Of a stretch of DNA of 64,000 bases, positions 33,644-62,551 are shown in pieces. Source of the DNA: Gemmatimonadaceae bacterium (lineage in GTDB: Bacteria; Gemmatimonadota; Gemmatimonadetes; Gemmatimonadales; Gemmatimonadaceae); the NCBI GenBank assembly GCA_035533755.1, contig DATLTC010000062.1, positions 15,181 through 79,180 of the forward strand. The letters run 5' to 3'. The position numbers and the translations under genes were made by a program. The notes beneath the pieces were generated by a model. That model was not told where the DNA came from. It did not search any database and saw only the letters and a program-made list of their open reading frames with translations. Numbering within the stretch: position 1 is the stretch's first letter; each line of letters begins with the position of its first letter.

Positions 33644-33691
33644 CACTCGAATGATGACAACCGGCGGCACCGGCTGCGCCATCCTGGTCAC

Positions 33692-43378: not shown

Positions 43379-43601
43379 CCACCGCAAGATAAGGGGCCGA
43401 ACGGGGGGCCGAAACGCTAAAGTCTGTATTGGCTCTGGACGGTAGCGGACATTATATCTCTAGTCCCGTAACTCGCCCGGGGCCGATTGGGTTCGGGCAG
43501 AGTGCAAGTGGCGATCCAGAGCACGAAAACATTTGTTTTTGGCTGTATTCGGCGACAGTCGCTCTGGATTGCTGCATCTCGCGGCCTATCGACCGAGGCG
43601 C

Positions 43602-44837
43602 GTGCGCATCGTTTACCTGAGTGGAACTGCCCAGCTTGGCGGAGCGGAACGCTGCCTGCTGGACGTGATGCAGAGCGTGCATGCCGATCAACCGGCGTGG
43701 ACGTTGATGCTCGTCGCGCCGCGCGACGGTCCGCTGGTGGAGCGCGCGCGCGCGTTGGGGTTTGGCGCCGAAGTCGTGCCGATTCCGAACAGCGTGGCGA
43801 GGCTGGGCGACTCGGCTACGCGGGGGCATCTGTTCCGACTGCTGGCGTTGGGCGCGCGCGCGGTGGGAGCGGCAGGGGGCGTAGCGCGCTATCGACGCCG
43901 GCTCCGGCGTGCGTTGGAGCGCCTGCGGCCCGATGTGGTGCACACCAACGGGTACAAGATGCACGTGATGGGCGCGTGGAGCCGCCCGCGTTCGGCGGCG
44001 CTGCTGTGGCACCTACATGACTACGTGTCGTCGCGTCCGATGATGGCGCGGGCGATGCGGCGTGTTTCACGGGACTGCGATGCCGCGGTGGCGGTATCGC
44101 CGAGCGTGGCACGGGACATGGCGCCATACTGGCGCGGGCGGTCGCCGGTGGCTGTGGTGCTGAATGGTGTTGACGTCGACGCGTTCCGGCCCGATGGACC
44201 GCGGGCCGATCTCGATGGACTGGCAGGTCTGCCGCCAGCTCCGCCGTCGACCGTCCGCGTGGGGCTCGTGGCGACGCTGGGGCGGTTCAAGGGGCACGAC
44301 GTGTTTCTGCGGGCCATCGCGCGTCTTCCGCAGGAGCTGCCACTGCGTGCATATGTCGTGGGCGGATCGTTGTACGAAACGCGAGGCAGCGAAGTCTCAC
44401 TGGACACTCTGCGGCAGATGAGCCACGAGCTCGGCATCGAGGCACGGGTGGGATTCACGGGGTTCGTGAGCGAACCGGCCACGGCGATGCGGGCGCTGGA
44501 CGTGATCGTGCATGCGACGACGGTGCCGGAGCCGTTCGGGCTCGTGATTGTGGAGGGGATGGCATGCGGTCGAGCGGTGATCGCGAGCGCGGCTGGAGGT
44601 GCGGCGGAGATCGTCGATGCGGAGGTCGACGCATTGACCCATGTACCCGGCGACGTGGGTGGGTTGGCGGTAGCGATCGAGCGGTTGGTGGTGGATGATG
44701 CATTGCGCCGCCGGCTCGGGGCCGCTGGGCGGCGGAGCGCGGAGTTGCGATTCAATCGCGATCGACTGGGCACGGCGATGGTTCCGATCTATCGAACCGC
44801 GGTGGCGAGCGCGGGGAAGGAGCGGCGGTCGGCATGA
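43602..44837 (+). CDS. glycosyltransferase family 4 (GT-B)
   Basis: 'PEPFGLVIVEGMACGRAVIASAAGGAAEIV' EX7E-type motif. GTG at 43602 gives 'RIVYLSGTAQLGGAER'. Confidence 0.8.
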   Translation: MRIVYLSGTAQLGGAERCLLDVMQSVHADQPAWTLMLVAPRDGPLVERARALGFGAEVVPIPNSVARLGDSATRGHLFRLLALGARAVGAAGGVARYRRRLRRALERLRPDVVHTNGYKMHVMGAWSRPRSAALLWHLHDYVSSRPMMARAMRRVSRDCDAAVAVSPSVARDMAPYWRGRSPVAVVLNGVDVDAFRPDGPRADLDGLAGLPPAPPSTVRVGLVATLGRFKGHDVFLRAIARLPQELPLRAYVVGGSLYETRGSEVSLDTLRQMSHELGIEARVGFTGFVSEPATAMRALDVIVHATTVPEPFGLVIVEGMACGRAVIASAAGGAAEIVDAEVDALTHVPGDVGGLAVAIERLVVDDALRRRLGAAGRRSAELRFNRDRLGTAMVPIYRTAVASAGKERRSA

Positions 44838-45958
44838 AACTTCTACACGTCTATAGCGGCAACCTCTACGGCGGCGTCGAGGCGATGCTCGTGACGCTGG
44901 CGTGCGAACGGGCCGCGTTCCCGGCGCTCGACGCGCAATTCGCGCTGTGTTTCGATGGCCGGCTGGCGCGCGAGCTCCGGGCCTGCGGGATGCCGGTGCA
45001 TCTGCTCGGCGGCGTGCGGGCCAGCCGTCCGTCCACGATCGTGCGCGCGCGACGGGCGCTGCGGGCGCTGCTCGCGGAGACGAAGCCGGACTTCGTGATG
45101 TGCCATTCGGCGTGGTCGTACTCCATTTTCTCACCGACGGCCCGACGGGCGGGATTTCCGGTGGGATTCTGGCTCCATGACGCGGTGCGGGGCAGCCACT
45201 GGACGGAGCGGTGGGCGCGGCTGCGGCAACCGGACGTCGTGATCTACAACAGCGCGTATACCGGGCGCACGGTCCCAACCGTCTTCCCGCGCGCGCCATC
45301 GGCGATGGTGTATTGCCCGGTGTCGGCCGCCGTGGCGCCGCCCGCGGCGCGCGCCGAGATGCGCGCGGAGTTCGGGGTGGCGCCGGACACGGCCGTCATC
45401 GTGCAGGTGGGCCGGCTCGAGCGGTGGAAGGGACACGCGTTGCTGTTGCACGCGCTCGGCTTCCTCGGCGATCTGCCGGGCTGGGAGTGCTGGATCGTGG
45501 GCGGCGTGCAGCGGGCATCGGAACGCGCGTATGAAGCACAATTGCGCACGCTGGCGGTATCGCGCGGGGTTCGCACCCGTGTGCGGTTTCTCGGGGAGCG
45601 CGACGACATTTCGCGGGTGCTCGCGGGTGCCGACGTCTTCTGCCAACCCAACGCGCAGGCGGAGCCATTCGGCGTGGCGATCATCGAAGCGCTGTATGCC
45701 GGGATTCCGGTCGTCGCCACGGACATGGGCGGACCGTCGGAAATCCTGGCCGGCGAATCGTGCGGCATTCTGGTGCCGCCGAAGCAACCGCACGAGTTGG
45801 CGAATGCCTTGCGGGGACTGATCGAGAACGTGCCGCGCCGGCGAGCCATGGGCGCGGCGGGTCCGGCGCGGGCCCGCGCGTTGTGCGATCCGGCGGCGCG
45901 GCTCGAACAGCTCAACGACGTCCTGATGGGCGCGATCCGGAGAAAGTCGGAAGCATGA
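44834..45958 (+). CDS. glycosyltransferase family 4
   Basis: 'AEPFGVAIIEALYAGIPVVATDMGGPSEIL'. ATGA overlap. Confidence 0.85.
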   Translation: MKLLHVYSGNLYGGVEAMLVTLACERAAFPALDAQFALCFDGRLARELRACGMPVHLLGGVRASRPSTIVRARRALRALLAETKPDFVMCHSAWSYSIFSPTARRAGFPVGFWLHDAVRGSHWTERWARLRQPDVVIYNSAYTGRTVPTVFPRAPSAMVYCPVSAAVAPPAARAEMRAEFGVAPDTAVIVQVGRLERWKGHALLLHALGFLGDLPGWECWIVGGVQRASERAYEAQLRTLAVSRGVRTRVRFLGERDDISRVLAGADVFCQPNAQAEPFGVAIIEALYAGIPVVATDMGGPSEILAGESCGILVPPKQPHELANALRGLIENVPRRRAMGAAGPARARALCDPAARLEQLNDVLMGAIRRKSEA

Positions 45959-46635
45959 GCGGAACGGCGCCCGATCTGGACACGCGCGCGCGGCAGTCGC
46001 TCGGCACGAGCGGTGACGCCATCTACGCCATGGTCGACGCGCTCGTGGGCGAGCGACACGCCGGCGGCGGCGTGCTGGCGGACATCGGATGCGGCACGGG
46101 GCTGCTCTGGTCGCGGCTGCAGGGGCGGTTCGCCCGGTGTTTGGGTGTGGATGCGGTGCGCTACGAGGGGCTCGATGGGGCGATCGAATTCGTGGCGCAC
46201 GATCTGGATCGGCCGGGCATTCCGCTGCCGGCGGCGTGCGCCGACGTGGTGACGGCGGTGGAGACGATCGAGCATCTGGAAAATCCGTGGGCATTCATGC
46301 GCGAGTTGGCCCGGCTGGCAGCGCCGGGTGGGTGGGTGGTGGTGACGACGCCCAATCAGCTCAGCGTATTGAGCAAGCTGACGCTCGTGCTGAAGAACGG
46401 GTTCAATGCGTTTCAGGAGGCCTCGTATCCGGCGCACCGTACGGCGTTGCTCGAAGTCGATCTGCGGCGGCTGGCGGGCGAAGCGGGGCTGACGCAGGCG
46501 GAAGTGCGGTACTCGGGTGAGGGGCGGCTGCCGTTCACGGGCCGGCACTACCCGCGTGCGCTCGGCGCCTTCTGGCCGCGCGGGTGTTCGGACAACGTGG
46601 CGATCGTGGCGCGCAAACCGGTGGGGGCGCGATGA
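45955..46635 (+). CDS. class I SAM-dependent methyltransferase
   Basis: 'VLADIGCGTGLL' motif I and 'ETIEHLENP'. ATGA overlap. Confidence 0.8.
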   Translation: MSGTAPDLDTRARQSLGTSGDAIYAMVDALVGERHAGGGVLADIGCGTGLLWSRLQGRFARCLGVDAVRYEGLDGAIEFVAHDLDRPGIPLPAACADVVTAVETIEHLENPWAFMRELARLAAPGGWVVVTTPNQLSVLSKLTLVLKNGFNAFQEASYPAHRTALLEVDLRRLAGEAGLTQAEVRYSGEGRLPFTGRHYPRALGAFWPRGCSDNVAIVARKPVGAR

Positions 46636-48029
46636 CGATGCCGGCATCGCCGGCCATGATGTCGAGCCAGGGCCGCGCGGTGGTTCTGGCGCCCGCGGAG
46701 CGCGAAGCGGATTTCTGGGTTCGGTGGTTCATCATCATCCAGGTAGTCTCGCAGTTGGCGATCATCAGTCCGCTGGGCAGCATGCGGATGATGTTCCGGA
46801 TGGCGGCGTTCGGATCGAGCCTGGTGTTTCTCGTCCTCGTGCGCGGGAGATCCGGCGGGCACCCGGCGCGGACCGCGGCCCTCATCGTGGTCGTGATTCT
46901 GTGTCTGGCGGTATTCAACCCGACGGCGGCGGCGCTGCCCGCCGCGCTGGCGCAGGTGGGGCTCTACGTGGCGATTCTGGCCCCGCTGTTCTGGGTGCCG
47001 CGGTTGACCGTGGCCACGAAGACGTTGCGAGACGTGCTGCTGATTCTCTGGCTGTTCCACACCGTGGGATCGGTGGTGGGCGTGCTCCAGGTGTATTACC
47101 CGGGCCGTTTCCAACCCAACGTCTCGCCGGTGATCCTCTCGCTGGGCCACGGCTACGTGGAGAGCCTGAAAATCACGACGTCCGGAGGGATCCGCGTTTT
47201 CCGACCGATGGGGCTGACGGACGTGCCAGGGGGCGCGTCGAGTTCAGGGTTCTACGCCGTGGTGCTGGGGATCGGGATGTTCTTCACGACGCAGCGCCGA
47301 TGGCTGTCGATGGCGGCGATCGGGAGCATCCTGCTCGGCCTGATGTGCCTGTATCTGTCACAGGTGCGGGCGATGATGGTGATCACGGGCGTCAGCATCG
47401 TCGGCGTGACGGCCATTCTGGCGCTGCGCCGCGATTACAAGCGGCTATCGGCCTTCAGCGTGGTGCTGGTCGTGGTACTCGTGGGAAGCTTCCGGAGCGC
47501 GGTGTCCCTGGCGCGGGGCAGCGTGGAAGAACGGCTGGGGACGCTCACGGCGGGGACGCCGGAACAGGTGTACGCGCAGAATCGCGGGGGGTTCCTGAGC
47601 CAGGCGTTCAACGAGTTGCTGCCGGAATACCCGCTAGGGGCAGGGATCGGTCGGTGGGGGATGATGAACGGGTACTTCGGTGACAAGTCCGATCCGAATC
47701 CGCCGCTCTGGGCGGAGATCCAATGGAGCGGGTGGGTGTTGGATGGCGGAGCGCCGCTCATCCTGGCGTACGTCTCGGCGCTGTTGCTGACGTTGTTGAC
47801 GACGCTGCGGATTGCCCGATGGCGATCGATGAGTGATCCCACCCTCTCACTGTGGGGCTCGGTGATCCTGGGCTATTCGGTGGGCACGTGCGCGCTGACG
47901 TTCTCGTATCCCGTGTTCCTGTCGCAGACGGGCATGGAGTTCTGGCTACTGAACGGCGTGGTTTTCGCGGCCGCGCGCACGCAGGCATGGCGAGACATGT
48001 CGCCGCCGCTTCCGCTTCCGCAGGCGTGA
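46632..48029 (+). CDS. Wzy-type polymerase / O-antigen-ligase-like polytopic membrane protein
   Basis: About 465 aa with 10 or more hydrophobic segments. It is the only polytopic membrane protein in the operon. ATGA overlap. Confidence 0.65.
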   Translation: MTMPASPAMMSSQGRAVVLAPAEREADFWVRWFIIIQVVSQLAIISPLGSMRMMFRMAAFGSSLVFLVLVRGRSGGHPARTAALIVVVILCLAVFNPTAAALPAALAQVGLYVAILAPLFWVPRLTVATKTLRDVLLILWLFHTVGSVVGVLQVYYPGRFQPNVSPVILSLGHGYVESLKITTSGGIRVFRPMGLTDVPGGASSSGFYAVVLGIGMFFTTQRRWLSMAAIGSILLGLMCLYLSQVRAMMVITGVSIVGVTAILALRRDYKRLSAFSVVLVVVLVGSFRSAVSLARGSVEERLGTLTAGTPEQVYAQNRGGFLSQAFNELLPEYPLGAGIGRWGMMNGYFGDKSDPNPPLWAEIQWSGWVLDGGAPLILAYVSALLLTLLTTLRIARWRSMSDPTLSLWGSVILGYSVGTCALTFSYPVFLSQTGMEFWLLNGVVFAAARTQAWRDMSPPLPLPQA

Positions 48030-49168
48030 AGCCCTACGCGCTGGTCACGGGCGACTTCGTCCGAACGGGCGGCATGGACGTGGCCAACTTCCATCTGGCA
48101 CGCCATCTCGCGAGCCGGGGCGGCGAAGTCCACTTGGTGGCGCATCGCGCCGATGCCGAGTTGCTGGCGATGCCGGGAGTGGTGATGCACCGGGTGGCGA
48201 AACCCTTGAACTCCTATCTGCTCGGCGCGCGGCTGTTGGCGCGCGCGGGCGCGCGGTGGGGGCGGGCGTGCCGGGCGCAGGGAGGGCGCCAGGTGGTGAA
48301 CGGTGGCAATTGCGCGAGTCCCGACACCAACTGGGTGCACTACGTGCATGCGGGACATGCTCCCGAAGTGGCCACGTCGCCGGTGGATCGGATGCTGCGC
48401 GCGTGGATGCACCGCCGATTCGTGATCGAGGAGCGGGCGGCGCTGGCGCAGGCGCGTCTGGTGATCGTGAATTCCGAGCGCACGGCGCAGGATCTGGTGG
48501 CCGGCGTAGGCGTGGCGAGGGGCCGGATCCAGACGGTGTACTACGGCACCGACGCCGCGTATCATCGGCCGCCCACGGTTGCGGAGCGCCGCACGGCGCG
48601 CGTCGCGCTCGGATGGAACGACGACGTGCCCGCGGTGGCGTTCGTGGGGGCGCTGGGGGATCGGCGCAAGGGATTCGACGTGCTGTTCCGCGCCTGGGAG
48701 GCGTTGTCCCGTGACGCGAGTTGGGACGTGCGGCTGGCCGTGATCGGGAGCGGGCGCGAACTCCCGGCGTGGCGCGACCGGGCGACACGTGCCGGGTTCG
48801 GTTCGCGGGTACGGTTCGTGGGATTCACCCGCGACGTGCGCGCCGTGCTGTGGGCGTGTGACGCGATCGTCGCGCCGGCCCGGTACGAAGCCTATGGGCT
48901 CGCCGTGCATGAAGCGGTGTGCTGCGGGCTGCCCGCGATCGTGAACGCGAACGCGGGCGTCGCCGAGCGACTCCTGGGGCTGGAAGCGCTGCAGCCGGCC
49001 GTGCCGGAAGACGGCGACGCGCTGGCCGACGCGATGCGGCGGTGGCGCGATGCGCGGGGGGCGTGGGCGGATCGCGCCCTCGGCCTGTCGGCGGAGCTGC
49101 GCGCGTGGAGTTGGGACGACATGGGCGCGCGGATCGTCGAGGCGATGGAAACAGCGGGGGCCGCGTGA
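48026..49168 (+). CDS. glycosyltransferase family 4
   Basis: 'YEAYGLAVHEAVCCGLPAIV'. GTGA overlap. Confidence 0.8.
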   Translation: MKPYALVTGDFVRTGGMDVANFHLARHLASRGGEVHLVAHRADAELLAMPGVVMHRVAKPLNSYLLGARLLARAGARWGRACRAQGGRQVVNGGNCASPDTNWVHYVHAGHAPEVATSPVDRMLRAWMHRRFVIEERAALAQARLVIVNSERTAQDLVAGVGVARGRIQTVYYGTDAAYHRPPTVAERRTARVALGWNDDVPAVAFVGALGDRRKGFDVLFRAWEALSRDASWDVRLAVIGSGRELPAWRDRATRAGFGSRVRFVGFTRDVRAVLWACDAIVAPARYEAYGLAVHEAVCCGLPAIVNANAGVAERLLGLEALQPAVPEDGDALADAMRRWRDARGAWADRALGLSAELRAWSWDDMGARIVEAMETAGAA

Positions 49169-50118
49169 CGCCATCGTCGCCGATGTTCGAACCGCTGACC
49201 GCGTGCTGGGTGTGTGGCGGAAGGGAGTTGCGGCCGGTGCACGAAGCCGTGTTCGAACTCTCCACCTACGTGGATCAGGATCCACCGCTCGCGGCGTACA
49301 CCGGTCAACACGTGGCGCTGGTTCGTTGCGCCACCTGCGGTTTCTCGCAGCCGGCGGCGCTGCCCGCGCTGCCGGGATATTTCGCGCGGATGTACGACCA
49401 GCGGTGGTCCGAAGACTGGATGGCGCACGAGTATGCGAGTGGCTACAAGGACCTGATCTTCCGTTCGGTGCTCGGCGAACTCGGGCGGCGGTTGCCGCCG
49501 GCACGGCGCGCGCTGCTCGATCTCGGCGCGCACGTGGGGCGGCTGCTGCGGATGGCGCGGGACCTCGGCTGGACGGCGGAGGGTGTGGAGTTGAATCCGC
49601 AGACGTCGGCGTTCGCGGCGGCGGCGACGGGGCTCCCCGTGCACCGCGCCGACGCCAGCACGCTGGCCGAGGCCGGCCGCCGGTACGACGCCGTGACGTT
49701 CATCGACGTGCTGGAGCACATTCCGGATCCAGTATCGGCGCTGGTGGCGGCGCGGCGCGTGCTCGCGCCGGGCGGCTGGATTGCCGTGAAGGTCCCGAAC
49801 GGGCCGGTGCAGTTGTGGAAGGAGACGGTGCGCGCGCGTGTGACTCCTGGGTATCGGGCGACGGTTGCGGACAACCTCGTGCACGTGAACCACTTCTCGC
49901 CGCGCACGCTGGCGCGCGCGCTGGAGCGGGCAGGCTTCACCCATGTGGAGGTCGGCCCGGCGGCGCCAGAGATCGTCCAACCGGGAGACGCCGGGTGGGT
50001 GAAGCGCTCGGCGGTCAACGGATTGCGGGTGGCGGCGTACGGACTGTCGCGCGCCCTGCCGGGTGGCACGCGGACGCCGCTGGCCCTGCACCTTCAGGCG
50101 TACGCGCAGGTGCCCTGA
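49165..50118 (+). CDS. SAM-dependent methyltransferase with N-terminal CxxC...CxxC zinc-ribbon
   Basis: 'CWVCGG...CATCGF', 'LLDLGAHVGRLL' and 'DVLEHIPDP'. The start is GTG at 49165 (GTGA overlap) or ATG at 49183. Confidence 0.75.
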   Translation: MTPSSPMFEPLTACWVCGGRELRPVHEAVFELSTYVDQDPPLAAYTGQHVALVRCATCGFSQPAALPALPGYFARMYDQRWSEDWMAHEYASGYKDLIFRSVLGELGRRLPPARRALLDLGAHVGRLLRMARDLGWTAEGVELNPQTSAFAAAATGLPVHRADASTLAEAGRRYDAVTFIDVLEHIPDPVSALVAARRVLAPGGWIAVKVPNGPVQLWKETVRARVTPGYRATVADNLVHVNHFSPRTLARALERAGFTHVEVGPAAPEIVQPGDAGWVKRSAVNGLRVAAYGLSRALPGGTRTPLALHLQAYAQVP

Positions 50119-51029: not shown

Positions 51030-51031
51030 CG

Positions 51032-53046: not shown

Positions 53047-53049
53047 CCA

Positions 53050-55400: not shown

Positions 55401-56242
55401 GCGTTCTCATAGGAATGAACTTCTATGCGGTGCAAGGCGATGCCGGTCGCCGGCAGGACCGCGCGATCGCGGCCCTGCGCGCGCTTCGCGGCACGCCGTG
55501 CGTGAATCTTCAGTGGCCGGACGGCCGATTCGACGTCCCCGGCATCGAGACGCTGGCCACGTTGCGCCGCGATGCGCGGACGGTGACCGGTCGCGACGGC
55601 CGGCGCAAGCCGATCGTCCCGGACATGCTCGACATCCTGGCGGACGCCGCCTCGGCGCGCGGCTGCTCGCACTTTCTGTTCGCGAACGCCGACATCGAGA
55701 TCACGCCGCCGGCCATTGCGCTCATCGACGAGGCGCCGCGCGACGGGTATGCGTTCGTGCGCACCGACCTCGATCCGGAGACCCACGCCTCGATCGGCCA
55801 GATGCGATACGGCGTCGATGCGTTCGCGTTCGACGTCCGGTGGTGGGGCCGGCACCGCCATCGATTCCGCGCGTACATCGCCGGCGAACCGGTGTGGGAT
55901 AACGTGTACACGGCGATTCTGCTCACCCACTCCGATGCCGCGTTCGTGGATCGTGAGGGACTGGTGTTGCACGAGCGGCATGAGTCGCCGTGGCGCGACA
56001 GTCCGTACGACGACTACACATGGTATCTCGCGGCGTTGGACCGGCCGTACTTCTCCCTCTGGTCCACGTTTCACGCCGAGTTCATGGCGCTTGGCGCGGC
56101 GGACGCCGGGGCGGGTGCCGTCGATGCGTTGCGGGACCGCGTGTTCGACGCGAGCAGGGTGGGTCGCGGACGGGTGGTGCAGTTCCTTCGAGCGGCCAAG
56201 GCGCGGGCGCGATATGCCATGCACGGGTTGCGTCGCCCGTGA
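55397..56242 (+). CDS. hypothetical protein in the EPS operon (possible GT-A-like fold)
   Basis: 281-aa ORF in the coupled frame (ATGA overlap). I recognise no family motif. 'FLFANADIEI' and 'GVDAFAFD' are only vaguely GT-A-like. Confidence 0.5.
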   Translation: MSVLIGMNFYAVQGDAGRRQDRAIAALRALRGTPCVNLQWPDGRFDVPGIETLATLRRDARTVTGRDGRRKPIVPDMLDILADAASARGCSHFLFANADIEITPPAIALIDEAPRDGYAFVRTDLDPETHASIGQMRYGVDAFAFDVRWWGRHRHRFRAYIAGEPVWDNVYTAILLTHSDAAFVDREGLVLHERHESPWRDSPYDDYTWYLAALDRPYFSLWSTFHAEFMALGAADAGAGAVDALRDRVFDASRVGRGRVVQFLRAAKARARYAMHGLRRP

Positions 56243-56253
56243 GTACGCGGCCG

Positions 56254-57393
56254 ATGCGCATCCTCCTCATGGGCGATTATGCCGACGATCCCCGTCTCGG
56301 GTCGACGAAGGTGTATTACAAGCTGCGCGAGGAGCTAACCCGCCTGGGCCACGACTGCGACGTGATGCTCGCCCCGGAGATCGGGAGTTGGCCCCGTGCC
56401 GCCAAGGTGCGGTGGGCGCTTGCTCCCGCATTGGCCGCGCGCGCCGTGGGGCGATCTGGGAAGCGCTACGACGTGATCGACGTCGCGAGCGCCGAAGGGT
56501 CGGTGCTCGGTCTTCGCCGAGCGCTGACTCCCGGCGATGACGTCGCGATCGTCAGTCGCTCGCACGGCTTGGAACACCGCAACTATCAACGGCTGCTCGA
56601 GGACCATGCGGCGGGGTTGGTCCGCAAACGGTGGCACCGCCGATGGTGGTATCCGGTGGCGCGGCTGTCGCAGGTGGCCCTGGCGGCCCGATTGGCCGAC
56701 CGGATGATCGTGCTCAACGCCGGCGACGCCGAATTCGCGGCAGCCCGCGGATGGAAGCCGCGAGCGGCCGTCGACGTCATTCCCCATGGCGTGTCGTCAC
56801 GATTCCTGGAGAGTGCGCCGCCGCCGGGGGCCGTACGCGGCCGGGGCATGCTCTTCTGCGGGACGTGGGACGACGTCAAGGGCGTACAGTATCTGGCGGA
56901 CGGCTTTTCCAGGCTCGCGGCGATCATGCCGCAGGCGCGCCTCACGATCGTCGGCGCGGCCATGCCGGAGGCGCTGGTTCTGGCGCGGTTCTCTCCGGAG
57001 GCCAGGACCCAGGTCACCGTGCTGCAGCGGGTGAGCGAAGAGGAGGTGATGGGCCAGTACCGGACCCACGACGCGCTGGTGCTGCCGTCCACCTATGAGG
57101 GGTTCGGCATGGTGGTGCTCGAGGCGATGAGCCAGCGGTTGCCGGTGATCTCGACCCCCGTGGGATGCGCGCCGGCGCTGATCCGCGACGGCGAGACGGG
57201 ACTGCTCGTTCGGCCGCGATCGGCCGATGACCTGGCGGCCGCCATGCGGCGCCTGCTCGACGACGCGGCGCTCCGCGCGCGCATCGCCAGCGCCGCATTT
57301 CCTCTGGCGCTGGCCCATACGTGGACGCGCACGGCGGAGCGAACACTCGCATCGTACACCGCGGCGCGCGCCATGCGGCGGGGGCCGACGTGA
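56254..57393 (+). CDS. glycosyltransferase family 4
   Basis: 'YEGFGMVVLEAMSQRLPVISTPVGCAPALI'. The start is ATG at 56254 or GTG at 56239 (GTGA overlap). Confidence 0.8.
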   Translation: MRILLMGDYADDPRLGSTKVYYKLREELTRLGHDCDVMLAPEIGSWPRAAKVRWALAPALAARAVGRSGKRYDVIDVASAEGSVLGLRRALTPGDDVAIVSRSHGLEHRNYQRLLEDHAAGLVRKRWHRRWWYPVARLSQVALAARLADRMIVLNAGDAEFAAARGWKPRAAVDVIPHGVSSRFLESAPPPGAVRGRGMLFCGTWDDVKGVQYLADGFSRLAAIMPQARLTIVGAAMPEALVLARFSPEARTQVTVLQRVSEEEVMGQYRTHDALVLPSTYEGFGMVVLEAMSQRLPVISTPVGCAPALIRDGETGLLVRPRSADDLAAAMRRLLDDAALRARIASAAFPLALAHTWTRTAERTLASYTAARAMRRGPT

Positions 57394-58310
57394 GCGACCC
57401 CGGACGGATCGCTGTGGGGATCGCGAGCCGCGGACGCCCCGATTCGCTGGCCCGCTGCATCGCGTCGCTGGCGACCATCGACGACATGGTCGATGAAGTG
57501 CTCGTGGTGGACGACGGGTCGCCGGATCCGTTGGAGCCCCGCGTGCGCGCGCAGTTGAGCGCCGAGGCCCAGCGCAAGCTCCGGATGATCCGGTTCGAAC
57601 CGGGCCGCGGACTGGCCGCGGCCCGCTCCGAATGCGTGCGGCGCGCTCATGCGCCGTGGGTGCTGAGTCTGGACGACGACGCCGTCGTGATCTCACGGGA
57701 CGCCGTGCACGCGGCGGTTCGCACGATCGCAGCCGATGCCGGGGTGTTCGCCGTGGCGTTCGCCCAATCCGACGCGAGCGGCGAACCGTGGCCGGCCGGC
57801 GCGCAGCCGGCCCAAGTGGCCTACCCGTGCTACACGGCGTCGTTCATCGGATTCGCGCATCTGGTGCGACGCGAGGCATTCGTGGCGCTTGGCGGGTTTC
57901 GCGAGCAACTCATCATCAATGGCGAGGAGCGCGAACTGTGCCTGCGCGCGCTCGACGCAGGGCTCGCCGTGGTGTACCTGCCGGATGCACGGGTGGCGCA
58001 CCTGGCCGACCCCACGGGACGCGACGTGCGGCGGTATCTGCACCTCACGGTTCGCAACGGCGTCCTGGCGTCGCTCTACGACGACCCGTTCCCGATGCTC
58101 TGCCTCCGCGTGCCGGCGCGCCTGCTTGCCTACTTCCGCATGCGCAGGGGCTGGGGCGTGCACGATCCGTGGGGCTTCGTCGCGATCCTGCGATGGCTGG
58201 CCCGCGACCTGGGCTCCGCACTCCGCCAGCGCAAGCCCGTCCGGTGGGCCACCATCCGTCGCTGGCGCCGCCTCGCGCGCGAGGCTCCCGTGTATCGAGG
58301 CCCGGCATGA
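57390..58310 (+). CDS. glycosyltransferase family 2
   Basis: 'IAVGIASRGRPDSLARCIASL', 'VLVVDDGSPDP' and 'SLDDDAV'. GTGA overlap. Confidence 0.8.
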   Translation: MSDPGRIAVGIASRGRPDSLARCIASLATIDDMVDEVLVVDDGSPDPLEPRVRAQLSAEAQRKLRMIRFEPGRGLAAARSECVRRAHAPWVLSLDDDAVVISRDAVHAAVRTIAADAGVFAVAFAQSDASGEPWPAGAQPAQVAYPCYTASFIGFAHLVRREAFVALGGFREQLIINGEERELCLRALDAGLAVVYLPDARVAHLADPTGRDVRRYLHLTVRNGVLASLYDDPFPMLCLRVPARLLAYFRMRRGWGVHDPWGFVAILRWLARDLGSALRQRKPVRWATIRRWRRLAREAPVYRGPA

Positions 58311-59461
58311 CCGCGCCCAAGCGTCTGCTGACGATCGGCCACTCGTACTGCGTGCGCCGCAACCGCGAGCTGGCCGACGCCATCGCCCGCGCGGGGAACG
58401 GCGCGTGGGAGGTGACCGTGGCCGCGCCGGACGCCTTTCCGGGTGACCTCGGACCGATCGTGACGCGTGCCGATGCGGACGAGCGCACCACATTGCGCGT
58501 GATCCCCGTGCATCGGGCCCGCCGGATCCACGTCATGACGTACGGACGGGCGCTCCGCCCGCTGCTGGCGCAGGAGTGGGACGCGATCCACTGCTGGGAG
58601 GAGCCTTACGTTCTCTCGGCGGCGCAGATCGCCCGGCGATCGCCGCGCCGTGCGGCGCTGGTGTACGCCACGTTCCAGAACATCGCCAAGCGCTACCCGC
58701 CGCCGTTCGGCGCGATCGAGCGATTCAGCATGCGGCGGGCGCGCGGATGGATCGCATTCGGTCGCTCCGTCGAGGCCACGCTCGAGGGGCGCGCCGGCTA
58801 CCACGAGCGCCCGCACGCGGTGATCCCGTTCGGCGTGGATCTGGGCCGGTTCTCGCCTGACGCGGCGTCGAGAGCCGCGCTGTTGGATGAGTTGCGCTGG
58901 GCCGCGGACGACACACCCGTGGTGGGATACCTCGGCCGGTTCGTCGAAGCCAAGGGCCTGCCGCTGCTGCTCCACGCCCTGCGCGATCTGCGCCGCTGCG
59001 GCGTGGCGTGGCGCGCGCTGTTCGTGGGCGGCGGACCGCTCGAGCCCGAGCTCCGCGGGTTCGCCGCCGAGCATGCGCCGCACGTGCACGTGGCCACCGG
59101 GGTGTCGCACGACGCCGTGCCGCGCTACCTCCGCGTCATGGACGTGTTGTGCGCGCCCAGCCAGACCACCGCCGGCTGGCGAGAGCAGTTCGGCCGCATG
59201 ATCGTCGAAGCGTTCGCCTGCGGCGTGCCGGTGATCGGTAGTGACAGTGGGGAGATCCCACACGTCATTGGAGATGCGGGACTGGTGGTGGGCGAGCGGG
59301 ATGCGGCGGGGTGGGTGGCCGTGCTCGGCCGGGTGCTCACCGACGCCGCCGACCGACGCACGCTGGGCGCGCGCGGGCGGGCGCGGGCCGAGGCCGAGTT
59401 CGCGTGGCCGGTGGTGGCGAACCGGCACCTCATGTTCTTCAACCAACTGCTCGGTACCTGA
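58307..59461 (+). CDS. glycosyltransferase family 4
   Basis: 'REQFGRMIVEAFACGVPVIGSDSGEIPHVI'. ATGA overlap. Confidence 0.8.
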   Translation: MTAPKRLLTIGHSYCVRRNRELADAIARAGNGAWEVTVAAPDAFPGDLGPIVTRADADERTTLRVIPVHRARRIHVMTYGRALRPLLAQEWDAIHCWEEPYVLSAAQIARRSPRRAALVYATFQNIAKRYPPPFGAIERFSMRRARGWIAFGRSVEATLEGRAGYHERPHAVIPFGVDLGRFSPDAASRAALLDELRWAADDTPVVGYLGRFVEAKGLPLLLHALRDLRRCGVAWRALFVGGGPLEPELRGFAAEHAPHVHVATGVSHDAVPRYLRVMDVLCAPSQTTAGWREQFGRMIVEAFACGVPVIGSDSGEIPHVIGDAGLVVGERDAAGWVAVLGRVLTDAADRRTLGARGRARAEAEFAWPVVANRHLMFFNQLLGT

Positions 59462-60240
59462 TGCGATCCGACGACCAGCAACTTGCCGCAGGGACTTACG
59501 CCAAGAAGCAACTGTTCGGCGGGTGCTCCCTGCTGTCCTGGAGCCACCGGCGGCGGTTCGACATGGCGCTGGCGCTGGCCGCGCCCTATGCCGGACGGCC
59601 GCTGCTCGACTACGGGTGCGGCGACGGGACATTTCTGGCGCTGGCCCACGAACAGTTTCCGGAGTCGGTGGGTCTGGAAGTCGACCCCGGACTCGTGACC
59701 GCATGCACGGAACGGTGGGGGCACCTGGGTGGACTGCGGTTCCTGCTGGCCGACCAGGCACAGGCACTTCCCGCGGGGAGCTTCGGTGTGGTGTTGTGCA
59801 CCGAAGTGCTGGAACACTGCCCCACGGACGCCGTCGACGTGGCCCTGGCGCGCATGCAGCGGCTGGTGGCGCCGGACGGACGCGTGATCATCAGCGTGCC
59901 GGTGGAGACGGGATTGCCGCTCGCCGTGAAGCAGGCGGCCCGCGCGATCGCCGCCCGCCGCGTGCACAGCGACTACCAGCACCGCGAGACGTATTCTGTG
60001 CGCGACTTCGTCCGCATGCTCATCGCCGATGAGCAGACCTCCGTGGACCGGCCGGTGTACGAGACGGAATTCGCGCCGGGACTTCCCAATCGGTATCACG
60101 GGCACAAGGGATTCAATTGGCGCGCCATGCGGCGCCGGGTCGGCGAGGCGTTCCGCGTGGTCGAGACGCGATTCTCGCCGGTGTCGTGGCTCGGTCCCGA
60201 GTTCGCCAGCCAGGCGTGGTTCGTCTGCTCGCCCCGATGA
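59461..60240 (+). CDS. class I SAM-dependent methyltransferase
   Basis: 'LLDYGCGDGTFL' and 'EVLEHCP'. The ATG shares one nucleotide with the upstream TGA. Confidence 0.75.
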   Translation: MRSDDQQLAAGTYAKKQLFGGCSLLSWSHRRRFDMALALAAPYAGRPLLDYGCGDGTFLALAHEQFPESVGLEVDPGLVTACTERWGHLGGLRFLLADQAQALPAGSFGVVLCTEVLEHCPTDAVDVALARMQRLVAPDGRVIISVPVETGLPLAVKQAARAIAARRVHSDYQHRETYSVRDFVRMLIADEQTSVDRPVYETEFAPGLPNRYHGHKGFNWRAMRRRVGEAFRVVETRFSPVSWLGPEFASQAWFVCSPR

Positions 60241-61379
60241 CCGGCCGCCCGCCGTTGCGCGTGGGCCTGGTGTGCGACCTCCTCGAAGAGCGATGGCCGA
60301 GCATGGATCTCGTGGCCGACGAACTGCTGCGCGCCCTGCCGTTGGTGGCGTCGCCGCGCGTGGATCCGGTGCGCCTGAGGACCACCATGCCGCGATGGCC
60401 GACGCAGGTGGCGCGGGCCCTACGGCTCCGCTCGGCGGTGAACGCCAACCGGTACCTCGACCGGCATTGGCGGTACCCGCGGTGGATCCGCCGCCATGCC
60501 GCCGGTTGTGATGCGTATCATGTCGTGGACCATACCTATGCGCATCTCGTGCATGAGCTTCCCGCGACGCGGACGATCGTGACCTGTCACGACATCGACG
60601 CCTTCCGGGCGCTGGTGGAGCCCGAACGCGAGCCGCGATCGCGCTTGTTCCGCCGGATGACAGCGCGCGTTCTGGACGGACTCCAGCGCGCCGCGCGCGT
60701 GACCTGCGACAGCGCCGCGACCCGGGACGCGCTGGTCGCGCACGGGCTCCGCACCGAAGGGCTGGTCGTGGTGCCCCTCGGCGTGCACCCCGCGTTCACG
60801 CCGGCCACCACGGCGCCGGCCGACGCTGGAACGGAGGTGACGCTGCTCCACGTGGGGAGCACGATCCCGCGAAAGCGCATCGACGTGCTGCTCCGGATAT
60901 TCGCCGGCGTGCGGGCGCAATTCCCGGCGGCGCGGCTGGTCCGGGTGGGGGGCGCGTTCACCGGGGAACAGGCCGCGTTGGCGCACGCGCTCGGGCTGGA
61001 CGGCGCGATCACGGTGATGCCGTTCGTCTCGCACGCCGCGCTCGCGGACCTGTACCGGCGCGCGGCGCTGGTCCTGCTGCCGTCGGAGCGCGAGGGGTTC
61101 GGGCTTCCGGTAGCGGAAGCGATGGCGTGCGGCACGCCGGTGGTGGCGAGCGACCTGCCCGTGTTGCGCGAGGTGGGGGCGGTGGCGGCTTCGTATGCCG
61201 CCGTGGGGAACGTGGGCGAGTGGGTGGACGCCGTATGCGCGCTGCTCACCGAGCGGGAGAAGTCGCTCGACACGTGGCGGCGTCGAACCGCCGCCGCCAC
61301 GGCGCAGGCCGCCGGCTTCACGTGGGAGCGCTGCGCGGCGCGCATGGCCGCCATTTACGCCGAGGTGGCCGGTGGCTGA
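60237..61379 (+). CDS. glycosyltransferase family 4
   Basis: 'REGFGLPVAEAMACGTPVVASDLPVLREVG'. ATGA overlap. Confidence 0.8.
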   Translation: MTGRPPLRVGLVCDLLEERWPSMDLVADELLRALPLVASPRVDPVRLRTTMPRWPTQVARALRLRSAVNANRYLDRHWRYPRWIRRHAAGCDAYHVVDHTYAHLVHELPATRTIVTCHDIDAFRALVEPEREPRSRLFRRMTARVLDGLQRAARVTCDSAATRDALVAHGLRTEGLVVVPLGVHPAFTPATTAPADAGTEVTLLHVGSTIPRKRIDVLLRIFAGVRAQFPAARLVRVGGAFTGEQAALAHALGLDGAITVMPFVSHAALADLYRRAALVLLPSEREGFGLPVAEAMACGTPVVASDLPVLREVGAVAASYAAVGNVGEWVDAVCALLTEREKSLDTWRRRTAAATAQAAGFTWERCAARMAAIYAEVAGG

Positions 61380-62517
61380 ACTGCGCGTGTTGCAGGTGGG
61401 CAAGTTCTATCCGCCCGACGAGGGCGGTATGGAGACGCACCTCGAGGGGCTCTGCCGGCACATGCGGGCGCATGCCGATCTCGAAGTGTTGGTGGCGTCG
61501 CGCACCCGGCGCACCGTCCACGAGGTGATCGCCGGCGTGCCGGTCACGCGCGTGGGGACGCTGGCCACGATCCGCAGTGCCCCGATCTGCCCGGAACTGC
61601 GGTGGCGCATCCGGGACAGCCAGGCCGACATCGTGCACCTGCACCATCCCAATCCGTCGGCGTTCCTCAGCTATCTGCTCAGCGGCCATCGCGGGCGTCT
61701 GATCGTCACGTATCACAGCGATGTCGTACAGCAGCGCCTGCTCAACATGATCTACGAGCCGATCGTGCGGGCCGTGCTGCAGCGCGCCGACGCGATCATC
61801 GTGAGTTCGCAGGAGTATCTCGACAGCTCCCCGATGCTCGGCCGATACGCCGACCGGTGCGTGGTCATCCCGATGGCGATCGATCCCGAGCAGTTCGCCG
61901 TTGCCGATGCCGCGGCCGTGGCCGCGATCCGCCAGGCGTACGGCGATCGCGTGATCCTGACCGTGGGGCGCCTGGTGTACTACAAAGGCATGGAATTCCT
62001 CATGCGCGCGATGCCCGACATCCGGGCGCACGCGCTGGTGGTCGGCCAGGGGCCGATGCGCGATGCGCTGGAGTTGGAGGCGCGGGCGCTCGGGGTGGCC
62101 GGCCGGGTGACGTTTCTGGGCCACGTGCCGGACACGGCGCCGTATTACCATGCGGCGGACGTCTTCGTCCTCCCTTCGCACCTCCGCAGCGAGGCGTTCG
62201 GAATCGTGCAGCTCGAGGCGATGGCAAGCGGCATCCCCGTGGTGAACACCCGGATCCCCTCCGGTGTCCCCGGCGTGTCGGTGGACGGACTCACCGGACT
62301 CACCGTGGCGCCCGGGGACCCGGGGGCGCTCGCCGACGCGGTCAACGCCCTGCTCGACCAACCGGCCCGCGCCCGCGCGTTGGGAGAAGCGGGGAGGCGG
62401 CGAGTCGGTGAACGCTATACCTTGGAGGGCATGACCGAGCGCACTCTTGCCCTGTACACGCGCGTACTGGCCGGGACGGGGTCGCGCTCCCGACGGAGGG
62501 GCCGTGGCAGAGCATAG
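61372..62517 (+). CDS. glycosyltransferase family 4
   Basis: 'SEAFGIVQLEAMASGIPVVNTRIPSGVPGV'. GTG at 61372 gives 'AELRVLQVGKFYPPDEGG'. Confidence 0.8.
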   Translation: MAELRVLQVGKFYPPDEGGMETHLEGLCRHMRAHADLEVLVASRTRRTVHEVIAGVPVTRVGTLATIRSAPICPELRWRIRDSQADIVHLHHPNPSAFLSYLLSGHRGRLIVTYHSDVVQQRLLNMIYEPIVRAVLQRADAIIVSSQEYLDSSPMLGRYADRCVVIPMAIDPEQFAVADAAAVAAIRQAYGDRVILTVGRLVYYKGMEFLMRAMPDIRAHALVVGQGPMRDALELEARALGVAGRVTFLGHVPDTAPYYHAADVFVLPSHLRSEAFGIVQLEAMASGIPVVNTRIPSGVPGVSVDGLTGLTVAPGDPGALADAVNALLDQPARARALGEAGRRRVGERYTLEGMTERTLALYTRVLAGTGSRSRRRGRGRA

Positions 62518-62551
62518 ACCCGTGGAAACGCACCGCCCGTCGCAGGGCGGA

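What the first reader, a model, noticed from the sequence alone, without database searches (positions are those of the whole stretch)
43602..62517. An 18-gene, roughly 19-kb polysaccharide operon with 12 glycosyltransferases and 4 methyltransferases, almost entirely linked by stop/start overlaps
By my calls the operon encodes:
- ten GT4-like and two GT2 glycosyltransferases;
- three class-I SAM methyltransferases, one with an N-terminal CxxC..CxxC zinc ribbon like sugar C-/O-methyltransferases;
- one FkbM methyltransferase;
- one Wzy-like polymerase;
- one unknown protein.

Of the 17 internal junctions, 9 are ATGA overlaps and 3-4 are GTGA overlaps. Two share a single nucleotide (TGATG), one overlaps by 8 nt, and only two have gaps, of 2-3 nt. 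One junction is counted as GTGA only if the GTG at 56239 is used rather than the ATG at 56254.

This gene content implies an unusually large, heavily methylated repeat unit. There is no nucleotide-sugar synthesis gene, no initiating phosphoglycosyltransferase (WbaP/WecA type) and no Wzx flippase in the operon. Those functions must be encoded beyond the PCP gene or elsewhere. The product and its role are not predictable from sequence.
Basis: partly seen in the sequence, partly recalled or inferred. Interest (0 to 1): 0.6.

Follow-up and report, generated by a model that had tools for sequence, protein, structure and literature searches.

The report
Giant conserved methylated-polysaccharide operon lacking flippase
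This is a real, tightly packed 18-gene operon (13 sugar-adding enzymes, 4 methylating enzymes, 1 polymerase-like membrane protein) for a large methylated surface polysaccharide; it keeps the same gene order in two soil phyla, and this genus has lost the operon's own flippase gene.

Summary
Eighteen same-strand genes fill 43602-62517. The other two are gaps of 2 and 3 nt. The Wzc gene follows 4 nt later.

Pfam confirms 10 GT4-like, 2 GT2, 3 class-I and 1 FkbM methyltransferases, and a weak Wzy_C protein. The "unknown" 281-aa protein models confidently as a GT-A fold, so it is probably a 13th glycosyltransferase.

All 16 genes tested are under purifying selection (dN/dS 0.08-0.29).

The missing functions were partly found:
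- a WecA-like initiating transferase and a GDP-fucose synthase lie 7-10 kb beyond Wzc;
- a short Wza lies upstream.

G1-G18 are collinear (40-65% identity) in Longimicrobium, Gemmatimonadales, Blastocatellia, Pyrinomonadaceae and Vicinamibacterales. Those versions carry a Wzx-fold membrane gene between G7 and G8. That gene is absent from this genome and its genus. One relative has an ABC transporter in that slot.

Best reading: a Wzy/Wzc/Wza-dependent, fucose-containing, O-methylated heteropolysaccharide whose flippase here is unresolved. It is a new member of a known kind, of moderate interest.

The parts
41146..41790 (+). Short Wza-like outer-membrane polysaccharide export protein (214 aa)
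   Evidence: Poly_export 52.6 bits plus SLBB. Below cut-off for EpsE and XrtA exporters. 72-76% identical and syntenic in G011, G012, G010 and G006.
41833..43387 (-). Two overlapping genes of unknown family (209 and 315 aa), divergent from the operon
   Evidence: No Pfam or NCBIfam hit. Syntenic at 70-73% identity in four same-genus genomes. The 315-aa protein also lies near Wza in Gemmatimonadales G043. Function not tested here.
43388..43601 (.). 214-bp divergent intergenic region; presumed promoter region of the operon
   Evidence: The only sizeable non-coding gap before G1. GAGG lies 3 nt before the GTG at 43602. No consensus sigma-70 match was found.
43602..44837 (+). G1, GT4-like glycosyltransferase (411 aa)
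   Evidence: Glyco_trans_1_4 96.6 bits, Glyco_transf_4 62.9 bits. Ortholog alignments begin at residue 1 of this start.
44834..45958 (+). G2, GT4-like glycosyltransferase (374 aa)
   Evidence: Glycos_transf_1 123.6 bits. ATGA overlap.
45955..46635 (+). G3, class-I SAM methyltransferase (226 aa)
   Evidence: Methyltransf_23 64.9 bits. dN/dS 0.23.
46632..48029 (+). G4, Wzy-like polytopic membrane protein (465 aa, about 10-11 TM); the only membrane protein in the operon
   Evidence: Wzy_C 24-29 bits, below the 31.7 cut-off. Hydropathy. Orthologs at 35-51% identity lie next to the GT block in six genomes of two phyla. dN/dS 0.11.
48026..49168 (+). G5, GT4-like glycosyltransferase (380 aa)
   Evidence: Glyco_trans_1_4 83.9 bits. 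Start uncertain: a gene caller on relative L075 used an upstream start.
49165..50118 (+). G6, class-I SAM methyltransferase with an N-terminal four-Cys zinc ribbon (317 aa)
   Evidence: Methyltransf_23 83 bits. C14, C17, C55 and C58 are invariant in 23 orthologs. Nearest solved relative is a D-glucose O-methyltransferase, 6uv6, E 4.6e-7. An alternative ATG start lies at 49183.
50118..51029 (+). G7, soluble GT2 glycosyltransferase (303 aa)
   Evidence: Glycos_transf_2 35.4 bits. No TM segment. 987 homologs at E<=1e-60 in metagenomes.
51030..51031 (.). Empty 'flippase slot': the 2-nt gap between G7 and G8
   Evidence: At this place 13 loci of other lineages carry a ~507-aa MOP/Wzx-fold gene. Relative L071 carries an ABC half-transporter there. 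Nothing is there in this genus.
51032..52192 (+). G8, GT4-like glycosyltransferase (386 aa); variable within the genus
   Evidence: Glyco_trans_1_4 75.5 bits. Absent from G012, G010, G006 and L064.
52189..53046 (+). G9, FkbM-family methyltransferase (285 aa); variable within the genus
   Evidence: Methyltransf_21 73.9 bits; TIGR01444 107 bits, above its cut-off. Absent from G010, G006 and L064.
53050..54237 (+). G10, GT4-like glycosyltransferase (395 aa)
   Evidence: Glyco_trans_1_4 87.8 bits.
54234..55400 (+). G11, GT4-like glycosyltransferase (388 aa), the weakest family match
   Evidence: Glyco_trans_1_4 40.6 bits, Glyco_trans_1_2 39.4 bits.
55397..56242 (+). G12, 281-aa protein with no sequence family; predicted GT-A fold, so a probable 13th glycosyltransferase; variable within the genus
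   Evidence: No Pfam or NCBIfam hit. AlphaFold2 model pLDDT 94.8. All top Foldseek PDB hits are GT-A glycosyltransferases: 1xhb, 6p61, 8bz5, 5tzi, 1h7q; E 1e-6 to 5e-4; TM 0.43-0.50. N97-x-D99, H192 and H195 are invariant. Absent from G010, G006 and L064.
56239..57393 (+). G13, GT4-like glycosyltransferase (384 aa)
   Evidence: Glyco_trans_1_4 110.3 bits. dS 0.99 against about 0.1-0.2 in its neighbours versus L075, which suggests a recombined allele.
57390..58310 (+). G14, soluble GT2 glycosyltransferase (306 aa)
   Evidence: Glycos_transf_2 62 bits. No TM segment.
58307..59461 (+). G15, GT4-like glycosyltransferase (384 aa)
   Evidence: Glycos_transf_1 92.3 bits. Full-length but sub-cut-off match to HpsO, 184.5 bits against 575.
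59461..60240 (+). G16, class-I SAM methyltransferase (259 aa)
   Evidence: Methyltransf_23 57.6 bits, Methyltransf_11 52 bits.
60237..61379 (+). G17, GT4-like glycosyltransferase (380 aa)
   Evidence: Glycos_transf_1 91 bits.
61372..62517 (+). G18, GT4-like glycosyltransferase (381 aa)
   Evidence: Glyco_trans_1_4 133.6 bits, Glyco_transf_4 71.5 bits. dN/dS 0.08.
62522..64000 (+). Wzc-type polysaccharide co-polymerase / tyrosine autokinase (816 aa; runs on to window position 64972, past the window end)
   Evidence: GNVR plus AAA_31. TIGR01007 191 bits, above its 108 cut-off; Wzc-like. C-terminal tail RYGRYGDYYYGYGY. GTG start 4 nt after the G18 stop.

Best explanation
The 18 genes form one translationally coupled operon, probably 19 genes with wzc. 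It builds the repeat unit of a large, O-methylated, fucose-containing heteropolysaccharide. The polymer is made by a Wzy-dependent route and exported through Wzc and a short Wza.

Proposed steps (all inferred; none shown biochemically):
1. The WecA-like transferase encoded 7-9 kb beyond wzc primes undecaprenyl phosphate with a HexNAc-1-phosphate.
2. Up to 13 soluble glycosyltransferases extend the lipid-linked glycan on the cytoplasmic face: ten GT-B/GT4-like, two GT2, and the GT-A-fold protein G12. One donor is GDP-L-fucose, from Fcl at the locus and Gmd on contig C100.
3. Four SAM methyltransferases O-methylate particular sugars: G3, the zinc-ribbon G6, G16 and the FkbM-type G9.
4. The unit is flipped across the inner membrane.
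5. G4 (Wzy-like) polymerises it, and Wzc and Wza control chain length and export.

The flipping step is unresolved here. The cluster's own Wzx-fold gene lies between G7 and G8 in other lineages but has been lost in this genus. A non-cognate flippase must therefore serve. The candidates are the Wzx of the second locus on C41, or an MsbA/PglK-like ABC half-transporter.

The cluster is an old, collinear module shared by a few Gemmatimonadota and several Acidobacteriota lineages. It carries small add-on and drop-out modules: G8, G9, G12, extra methyltransferases, and the flippase.
For: - One unit: same strand, 15 of 17 junctions overlapping, gaps of at most 3 nt, 4 nt to wzc. This is far above the genome background. 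Junctions are conserved in G011 and G012. No internal promoter-like or terminator-like excess.
- Enzyme types. G12 GT-A fold.
- All genes functional: dN/dS 0.08-0.29 for G3-G18 against L075. The GT4 paralogs share only 25-42% identity, so they are old and distinct.
- Pathway parts: Wzc, Wza, WecA-like and Fcl, Gmd on C100.
- WecA-like, Fcl (plus Gmd) and a Wzc-like gene stay next to G1-G18 in Gemmatimonadales G043 and Blastocatellia G041 although arranged differently.
- G4 is a conserved cluster member. A stronger Wzy_C protein, a better WaaL candidate, exists on C31.
- Cognate flippase in other lineages: a 507-aa protein in 13 loci, model pLDDT 87.5, top structural hit WzxE lipid III flippase at TM 0.61/0.73. 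It is absent from G000 and six same-genus genomes.
- Collinearity across phyla. The tree follows taxonomy.
Against: - There is no transcript, glycan or mutant evidence.
- G4 scores below Pfam's Wzy_C cut-off, and Wzy cannot be told from WaaL- or PglL-type ligases by sequence.
- No flippase can be assigned. The C41 Wzx is unique to this genome. The ABC transporter next to wzc belongs by context to a lasso-peptide-like cluster and is degraded in G011, which keeps the full operon.
- One glycosyltransferase per sugar is an assumption. The methyl acceptors are unknown.
- The G12 fold match is moderate (TM about 0.45-0.5, 8-13% identity).
Confidence: 0.72

Rival explanations
1. The operon builds a defined, non-polymerised oligosaccharide of about 14 sugars. 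An MsbA/PglK-like ABC transporter flips it. G4, acting as a WaaL/PglL-type ligase, transfers it once to lipid A-core or to proteins. This would resemble a Pgl or lipo-oligosaccharide system rather than an exopolysaccharide system.
For: - G4 matches only the generic Wzy_C (O-antigen ligase) domain, weakly.
- No Wzx is present in the operon or as an ortholog in the genus.
- An MsbA/HepA/PglK-like ABC half-transporter lies convergent to wzc. Another one sits in the flippase slot of relative L071.
- Strict conservation of 13 glycosyltransferases in order across phyla suits a fixed glycan.
Against: - A Wzc tyrosine autokinase with a Tyr-rich tail follows the operon at 4 nt, and a Wza lies upstream. 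Both are hallmarks of high-molecular-weight polymer export, and a Wzc-like gene is linked to the cluster in three lineages.
- Most versions of the cluster carry a Wzx-fold gene, not an ABC transporter.
- The neighbouring ABC transporter sits in a lasso-peptide-like cluster and is degraded in G011.
- A stronger Wzy_C candidate for WaaL lies on C31.
Confidence: 0.12
2. The block is not one assembly line. It is two or more glycan pathways, or independently transcribed sub-operons, placed side by side. The repeat unit of any one product would then be much smaller than the number of glycosyltransferases suggests.
For: - G8, G9 and G12 come and go within the genus.
- In some Acidobacteriota the order is rearranged, or G1-G6 lie apart from the rest (L055, L056-L063).
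- Promoters inside coding sequence cannot be excluded with a consensus scan.
Against: - There is only one Wzy-like protein and no second initiating transferase, PCP or exporter inside the block.
- All junctions leave at most 3 nt, and this is conserved between species.
- G5-G18 travel together in order across two phyla.
Confidence: 0.08
3. In this genus the pathway is a decaying relic. Loss of the cognate Wzx blocked export, and the remaining genes no longer make a surface polymer.
For: - The cluster's Wzx is absent from the genome and from six same-genus genomes.
- No conserved substitute flippase was found.
- Some genus members have lost G8, G9 and G12.
Against: - All 18 frames are intact.
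- dN/dS is 0.08-0.29 for the 16 genes tested.
- Orthologs at 57-80% identity in several species keep both the frames and the overlap junctions.
- A blocked undecaprenyl-linked pathway is normally toxic and would be purged (established knowledge, not tested here).
Confidence: 0.05

Closest known systems
Wzx/Wzy-dependent group 1 capsule and colanic-acid type assembly (E. coli Wza-Wzb-Wzc with Wzx, Wzy and WbaP/WecA)
   Same: - A polyprenyl-phosphate initiating transferase, soluble glycosyltransferases and a Wzy_C-type membrane protein.
- A Wzc co-polymerase/tyrosine autokinase with a Tyr-rich tail.
- A Wza-family exporter.
   Different: - 13 probable glycosyltransferases and 4 methyltransferases, against about 4-6 glycosyltransferases.
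- No Wzx in the locus or as an ortholog in the genus.
- Wza is only 214 aa.
- No Wzb phosphatase was looked for.
- The initiating enzyme lies in a separate, oppositely oriented unit.
Large rhizobial exopolysaccharide clusters (succinoglycan exo; Rhizobium leguminosarum Pss-I, more than 20 genes for an octasaccharide; PMC9961541, PMC5748678)
   Same: - A many-gene cluster with one glycosyltransferase per sugar of a large repeat unit.
- Modifying enzymes interleaved with the glycosyltransferases.
- Wzx/Wzy/PCP/OPX export.
   Different: - Here the modifications are methylations, not acetyl, pyruvyl or succinyl groups.
- More glycosyltransferases (13).
- No sequence orthology reaches any NCBIfam cut-off.
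- The cluster is conserved in order across two phyla.
Cyanobacterial hormogonium polysaccharide (hps) glycosyltransferase set
   Same: - G15 aligns end to end with HpsO (184.5 bits). Several GT4 proteins hit HpsP or HpsO weakly.
- From my own knowledge, HPS is a fucose-containing secreted polysaccharide.
   Different: - All scores are far below the equivalog cut-offs (575 and 550).
- The rest of the hps set and its type IV pilus link are not present.
- This is a lead only, not a membership claim.
Campylobacter Pgl pathway and Helicobacter Wzk (PglK-type ABC flipping of a complete lipid-linked oligosaccharide)
   Same: - An MsbA/PglK-like ABC half-transporter sits beside the locus (185 bits to PglK, 282 bits to HepA).
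- Another one sits in the flippase slot of relative L071.
   Different: - All scores are below cut-off.
- The neighbouring ABC transporter is embedded in a lasso-peptide-like cluster.
- Wzc and Wza argue for a polymer.

Membership tests
Wzx/Wzy-dependent polysaccharide pathway | Initiating polyprenyl-phosphate phosphoglycosyltransferase | tested here: met
   A WecA-like Glycos_transf_4 protein of 511 aa (135.8 bits) lies at L001:9753-11288(-). It stays linked to the GT block in G043, G041 and L037 in different arrangements. It lies outside the 18-gene operon.
Wzx/Wzy-dependent polysaccharide pathway | Wzy polymerase | tested here: inconclusive
   G4 has about 10-11 TM segments and scores 24-29 bits on Wzy_C, below the 31.7 cut-off. 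It has no solved relative by sequence. It is a conserved cluster member. Polymerase and ligase cannot be told apart from sequence.
Wzx/Wzy-dependent polysaccharide pathway | Cognate Wzx (MOP) flippase | tested here: not met
   There is none in the operon. The cluster's Wzx-fold gene seen in other lineages has no homolog in G000 or in six same-genus genomes. The only Polysacc_synt gene is in a second locus on C41 and is unique to this genome.
Wzx/Wzy-dependent polysaccharide pathway | PCP-2a co-polymerase / BY-kinase (Wzc) and OPX exporter (Wza) | tested here: met
   Wzc: TIGR01007 191 bits (cut-off 108), GNVR, Tyr-rich tail. Wza: Poly_export 52.6 bits (cut-off 28) plus SLBB.
ABC-transporter-dependent (Wzm/Wzt) polysaccharide pathway | ABC-2 type Wzm/Wzt exporter at the locus, and chain growth without Wzy | tested here: not met
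   No Wzm/Wzt-type genes were found among the genes scanned from 33692 to L001:15078. The only ABC protein is an MsbA-type half-transporter. A Wzy-like gene is present. The whole genome was not scanned for ABC-2 families.
Synthase-dependent pathway | Membrane-embedded processive GT2 synthase | tested here: not met
   Both GT2 proteins (G7, G14) are about 300 aa with no TM segment.
PEP-CTERM / XrtA exosortase-associated EPS locus | Equivalog-level matches to stp1-3, the XrtA-associated PCP, kinase, exporter or amidotransferase | tested here: not met
   All matches are far below cut-off. Examples: stp2 at most 107 bits against 409; pepcterm_TyrKin 147 against 231; pepcterm_export 46 against 180; eps_aminotran_1 170 against 817. 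Exosortase itself was not searched for.
GT-A fold glycosyltransferases (for G12) | GT-A Rossmann-like fold with a DxD-type metal and nucleotide-sugar site | tested here: inconclusive
   The fold criterion is met. The model has pLDDT 94.8, and all the top Foldseek PDB hits listed are GT-A enzymes. The motif is NxD (invariant N97 and D99), not DxD. No sequence family matches. Activity is untested.

The most novel reading that the evidence does not exclude
In this Gemmatimonadaceae genus, a Wzy/Wzc/Wza-dependent pathway runs without any cognate Wzx. The ancestral MOP flippase gene was excised cleanly from between G7 and G8. Its job has passed to an MsbA/PglK-type ABC half-transporter. A relative with an ABC gene inserted in exactly that slot supports this idea. 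The result would be a hybrid pathway, flipped by an ABC transporter and polymerised by Wzy, for a conserved repeat unit of about 14 sugars with several methyl groups, shared by Acidobacteriota and Gemmatimonadota.
Probability: 0.2. Interest if true: 0.7.

Novelty: new member of a known kind. Interest (0 to 1): 0.48.

Why it matters
Acidobacteriota and Gemmatimonadota are abundant soil phyla that are hard to culture, and the chemistry of their envelopes and exopolysaccharides is almost unknown.

This cluster is much larger than the characterised Wzy-type exopolysaccharide clusters named under closest known. It has 13 probable glycosyltransferases and 4 to about 7 methyltransferases. It keeps its gene order across two phyla, unlike typical hypervariable O-antigen and capsule loci. 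That points to a defined, complex, hydrophobically modified glycan. Roles in desiccation tolerance, aggregation or phage and predator interactions are speculation, not tested here.

The cluster also offers two specific things:
- a Pfam-less GT-A family (G12);
- a natural series (Wzx, ABC transporter, or nothing in the same slot) for asking how strictly Wzy pathways need their own flippase.

Tried and rejected
- Solved-structure search with G4 found nothing, so it could not separate Wzy from WaaL.
- NCBIfam gave no equivalog-level name for any glycosyltransferase or for G4.
- I first considered the ABC half-transporter next to wzc as the flippase. I downgraded it for three reasons. It lies in a PqqD / lasso-cyclase-like / HprK-like / NTP_transf_5 cluster with a precursor-like peptide. 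It is degraded in G011. It is not the closest homolog of the in-operon ABC transporter of L071.
- I considered the C41 Wzx as a conserved trans-acting flippase. It is unique to this genome.
- I considered recent duplication as the origin of the ten GT4 genes. They share only 25-42% identity.
- I considered recent horizontal transfer between the phyla. The tree of G13+G15+G17 follows taxonomy, although the cluster is rare in Gemmatimonadota (3 of 151 genomes sampled).
- Two literature searches found no description of this cluster. That does not prove there is none.
- The consensus promoter and terminator scan found nothing above chance. It may not suit this phylum.

Full report
**Where and what.** The window is C62:15181-79180 of a 3.25-Mb, 103-contig genome with 69.6% GC. 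Its closest named relatives are Gemmatimonadaceae MAGs. In such GC-rich DNA plain ORF lists are useless, so I called genes from third-position GC.

**The observation.**
- Eighteen + strand genes run from 43602 to 62517.
- Taking the start codon nearest each upstream stop, the 17 junctions are 8 ATGA, 4 GTGA, 2 single-base overlaps (TGATG), one 8-nt overlap, and gaps of 2 and 3 nt. Everything else matches.
- The next gene (GTG at 62522) starts 4 nt after the last stop, so the tight run is 19 genes.
- An independent gene caller on a close relative (L075) gives the same protein lengths, except for the starts of G5 and G6. Two GTGA junctions are therefore less certain.
- With my crude genome-wide calls, 33% of same-strand neighbour pairs could overlap by 4, 1 or 8 nt. 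Here 15 of 17 do (P about 3e-6), and this is the longest tight run in the genome.
- The same junction pattern recurs in the orthologous loci of two other species at 57-80% protein identity.
- A consensus scan finds no excess of promoter-like or terminator-like sites inside.

**Gene content.**
- Pfam confirms ten Glycos_transf_1/GT4-like proteins (G1, 2, 5, 8, 10, 11, 13, 15, 17, 18), two soluble GT2 (G7, G14), three class-I SAM methyltransferases (G3, G6, G16) and one FkbM methyltransferase (G9).
- G4 matches Wzy_C below cut-off. It is the only polytopic membrane protein.
- The four Cys of G6's N-terminal ribbon are invariant in 23 orthologs. Its nearest solved relative is a glucose O-methyltransferase.
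- NCBIfam gives no equivalog-level name to any of them.
- The GT4 paralogs share only 25-42% identity, so they are old and distinct.
- Against a close relative, dN/dS is 0.08-0.29 for all 16 genes compared, so none is a pseudogene.

**The 'unknown' protein G12.**
- It belongs to a Pfam-less family of about 280 aa found in Gemmatimonadota and Acidobacteriota metagenomes.
- With a 41-sequence alignment, AlphaFold2 gives pLDDT 94.8.
- All the top Foldseek PDB hits listed are GT-A glycosyltransferases, among them ppGalNAc-T, SpsA, RmlT, TarS/TarP, ArnC and GtrB. E ranges from 1e-6 to 5e-4 and TM from about 0.43 to 0.50.
- An invariant N97-x-D99 stands where I infer the DxD motif would lie.
- I read it as a probable 13th glycosyltransferase. 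Activity is inferred.

**The missing functions.**
- The gene after G18 is a full Wzc: GNVR, a P-loop kinase domain above the TIGR01007 cut-off, and a Tyr-rich tail.
- A 214-aa Wza-like exporter lies upstream at 41146-41790.
- Beyond Wzc, on the opposite strand, lie in order: an MsbA/HepA/PglK-like ABC half-transporter, NTP_transf_5, an HprK-related kinase, a lasso-cyclase-like asparagine synthase homolog, a PqqD protein, then a 511-aa WecA-like transferase and GDP-L-fucose synthase Fcl.
- Gmd is on contig C100.
- The only Polysacc_synt (Wzx) gene of the genome sits in a second polysaccharide locus on C41, which has its own PCP, Wzy_C protein, glycosyltransferases and Wzi-like genes.
- A third and stronger Wzy_C gene, a better WaaL candidate, is on C31.
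- The only WbaP-type transferase is on C69.

**Comparative picture.**
- The whole super-locus, from Wza to Fcl and beyond, is syntenic in same-genus genomes. G010, G006 and L064 lack G8, G9 and G12. G012 lacks only G8. G006 lacks Fcl.
- G5-G18 are collinear at 40-65% identity in Longimicrobium, Gemmatimonadales, Blastocatellia, Pyrinomonadaceae and Vicinamibacterales, and in a MAG labelled Clostridia that nests within Blastocatellia in the tree. Other Acidobacteriota carry the same genes in a rearranged order, and a Planctomycetaceae MAG contig shows G11-G14 only.
- In Blastocatellia G041 (54% GC) and Gemmatimonadales G043 (73.5% GC), all of G1-G18 are in order. Fcl (plus Gmd in G041), a WecA-like gene and a Wzc-like gene lie beside them, arranged differently. 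This guilt by association ties WecA and GDP-fucose to the pathway.
- A tree of G13+G15+G17 follows taxonomy.
- The cluster is rare in an even sample of Gemmatimonadota: 3 of 151 genomes. It is old but patchy.

**The flippase slot.**
- The longer versions carry extra methyltransferases. Between G7 and G8 they carry a ~507-aa, 12-helix protein found in 13 loci. It has no Pfam match.
- Its model (pLDDT 87.5) matches the WzxE lipid III flippase best, at TM 0.61/0.73, followed by MATE and MurJ proteins.
- This cognate Wzx has no homolog in the window's genome or in six same-genus genomes. Here G7 and G8 are 2 nt apart.
- In relative L071, an error-prone long-read contig, an ABC half-transporter occupies that slot. 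Its closest homolog here is an MsbA-like gene on C96, in an unrelated context.
- The ABC transporter next to wzc looks like the exporter of a kinase- and nucleotidyltransferase-type lasso-peptide cluster (PMC8498205). A precursor-like ORF at L001:7156-7416(-) fits Y-x2-P-x-L-x3-G-x5-T-x, a lasso leader motif recalled from memory. It is conserved at the syntenic site in G012 and G010.
- That ABC transporter is degraded in G011, which keeps the full operon.
- The C41 Wzx is unique to this genome. Other genus members have other Wzx-family genes elsewhere.
- The flippase used here therefore remains open.

**Verdict.** The finding is real and its interpretation is sound. It is a Wzy/Wzc/Wza-type polysaccharide locus, which is a known kind. 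It stands out in four ways:
- its size (13 probable glycosyltransferases, 4 methyltransferases);
- its collinear conservation across two phyla;
- a Pfam-less GT-A member;
- a genus-wide loss of its own flippase.

Every biochemical step is inferred.

Noticed in passing
L001:3131-9749 (-) = C62:80131-86749, just past the window end: A lasso-peptide-like cluster of the kinase/nucleotidyltransferase type. It comprises PqqD (B1-like), a lasso-cyclase-like asparagine synthase homolog, an HprK-related kinase, NTP_transf_5 and an ABC exporter. No separate B2 protease was recognised. The WecA-like gene ends 3 nt before the PqqD gene. The ABC gene overlaps the end of wzc by 22 nt, convergently.
   Followed up: partly
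L001:7156-7416 (-), between the cyclase-like and kinase-like genes: A candidate lasso precursor. The leader ...EYGAPQLTVYGRLVDVTA fits Y-x2-P-x-L-x3-G-x5-T-x. The core is KVGPQGKKDHSGSRRTGY, with Asp at position 9. A similar peptide lies at the syntenic site in G012 and G010. Residue 1 of the core is K or A, which from memory is unusual.
   Followed up: partly
G000 contig C41:1-12390 (L016): A second Wzy-type polysaccharide locus. It has a GNVR PCP fragment, a 939-aa Wzy_C protein with Big_1 and CarboxypepD_reg domains, the genome's only Polysacc_synt Wzx, GT2 and GT4 genes, and two Wzi-like proteins. Its Wzx has no ortholog in 11 same-genus genomes.
   Followed up: partly
window 55397-57393 (G12-G13) versus L075: G13 has dS 0.99 and G12 has dS 0.32 against a close relative, whereas the flanking genes have dS of about 0.1-0.2. 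This looks like a recombination or allele-replacement tract inside the operon.
   Followed up: no
G011:C2, about 1457477-1458700 (in one search coordinates 32477-33700): The ABC transporter next to wzc is broken into pieces with about 150 residues missing, in a 99%-complete genome that keeps all 18 operon genes.
   Followed up: partly
L018 and L019 (Vicinamibacterales soil contigs), and L044, L047, L048, L052, L054, L061: G12-family genes occur alone, outside any glycosyltransferase cluster. In L018 and L019 they lie next to amidase, Fe-ADH and response-regulator genes. The family is therefore not restricted to this operon.
   Followed up: no
L067:3-917 (-), Blastocatellia G041: An MbnB/TglH/ChrH-type RiPP-modification gene and a Methyltransf_3 O-methyltransferase lie between G18 and beyond the WecA-like gene in the Blastocatellia version of the locus.
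   Followed up: no
L037 (contig CAZTUB010000001.1, MAG labelled 'uncultured Clostridia'): This MAG carries the full collinear block and nests inside Blastocatellia in the glycosyltransferase tree. Its taxon label is probably wrong, or the cluster was transferred.
   Followed up: no
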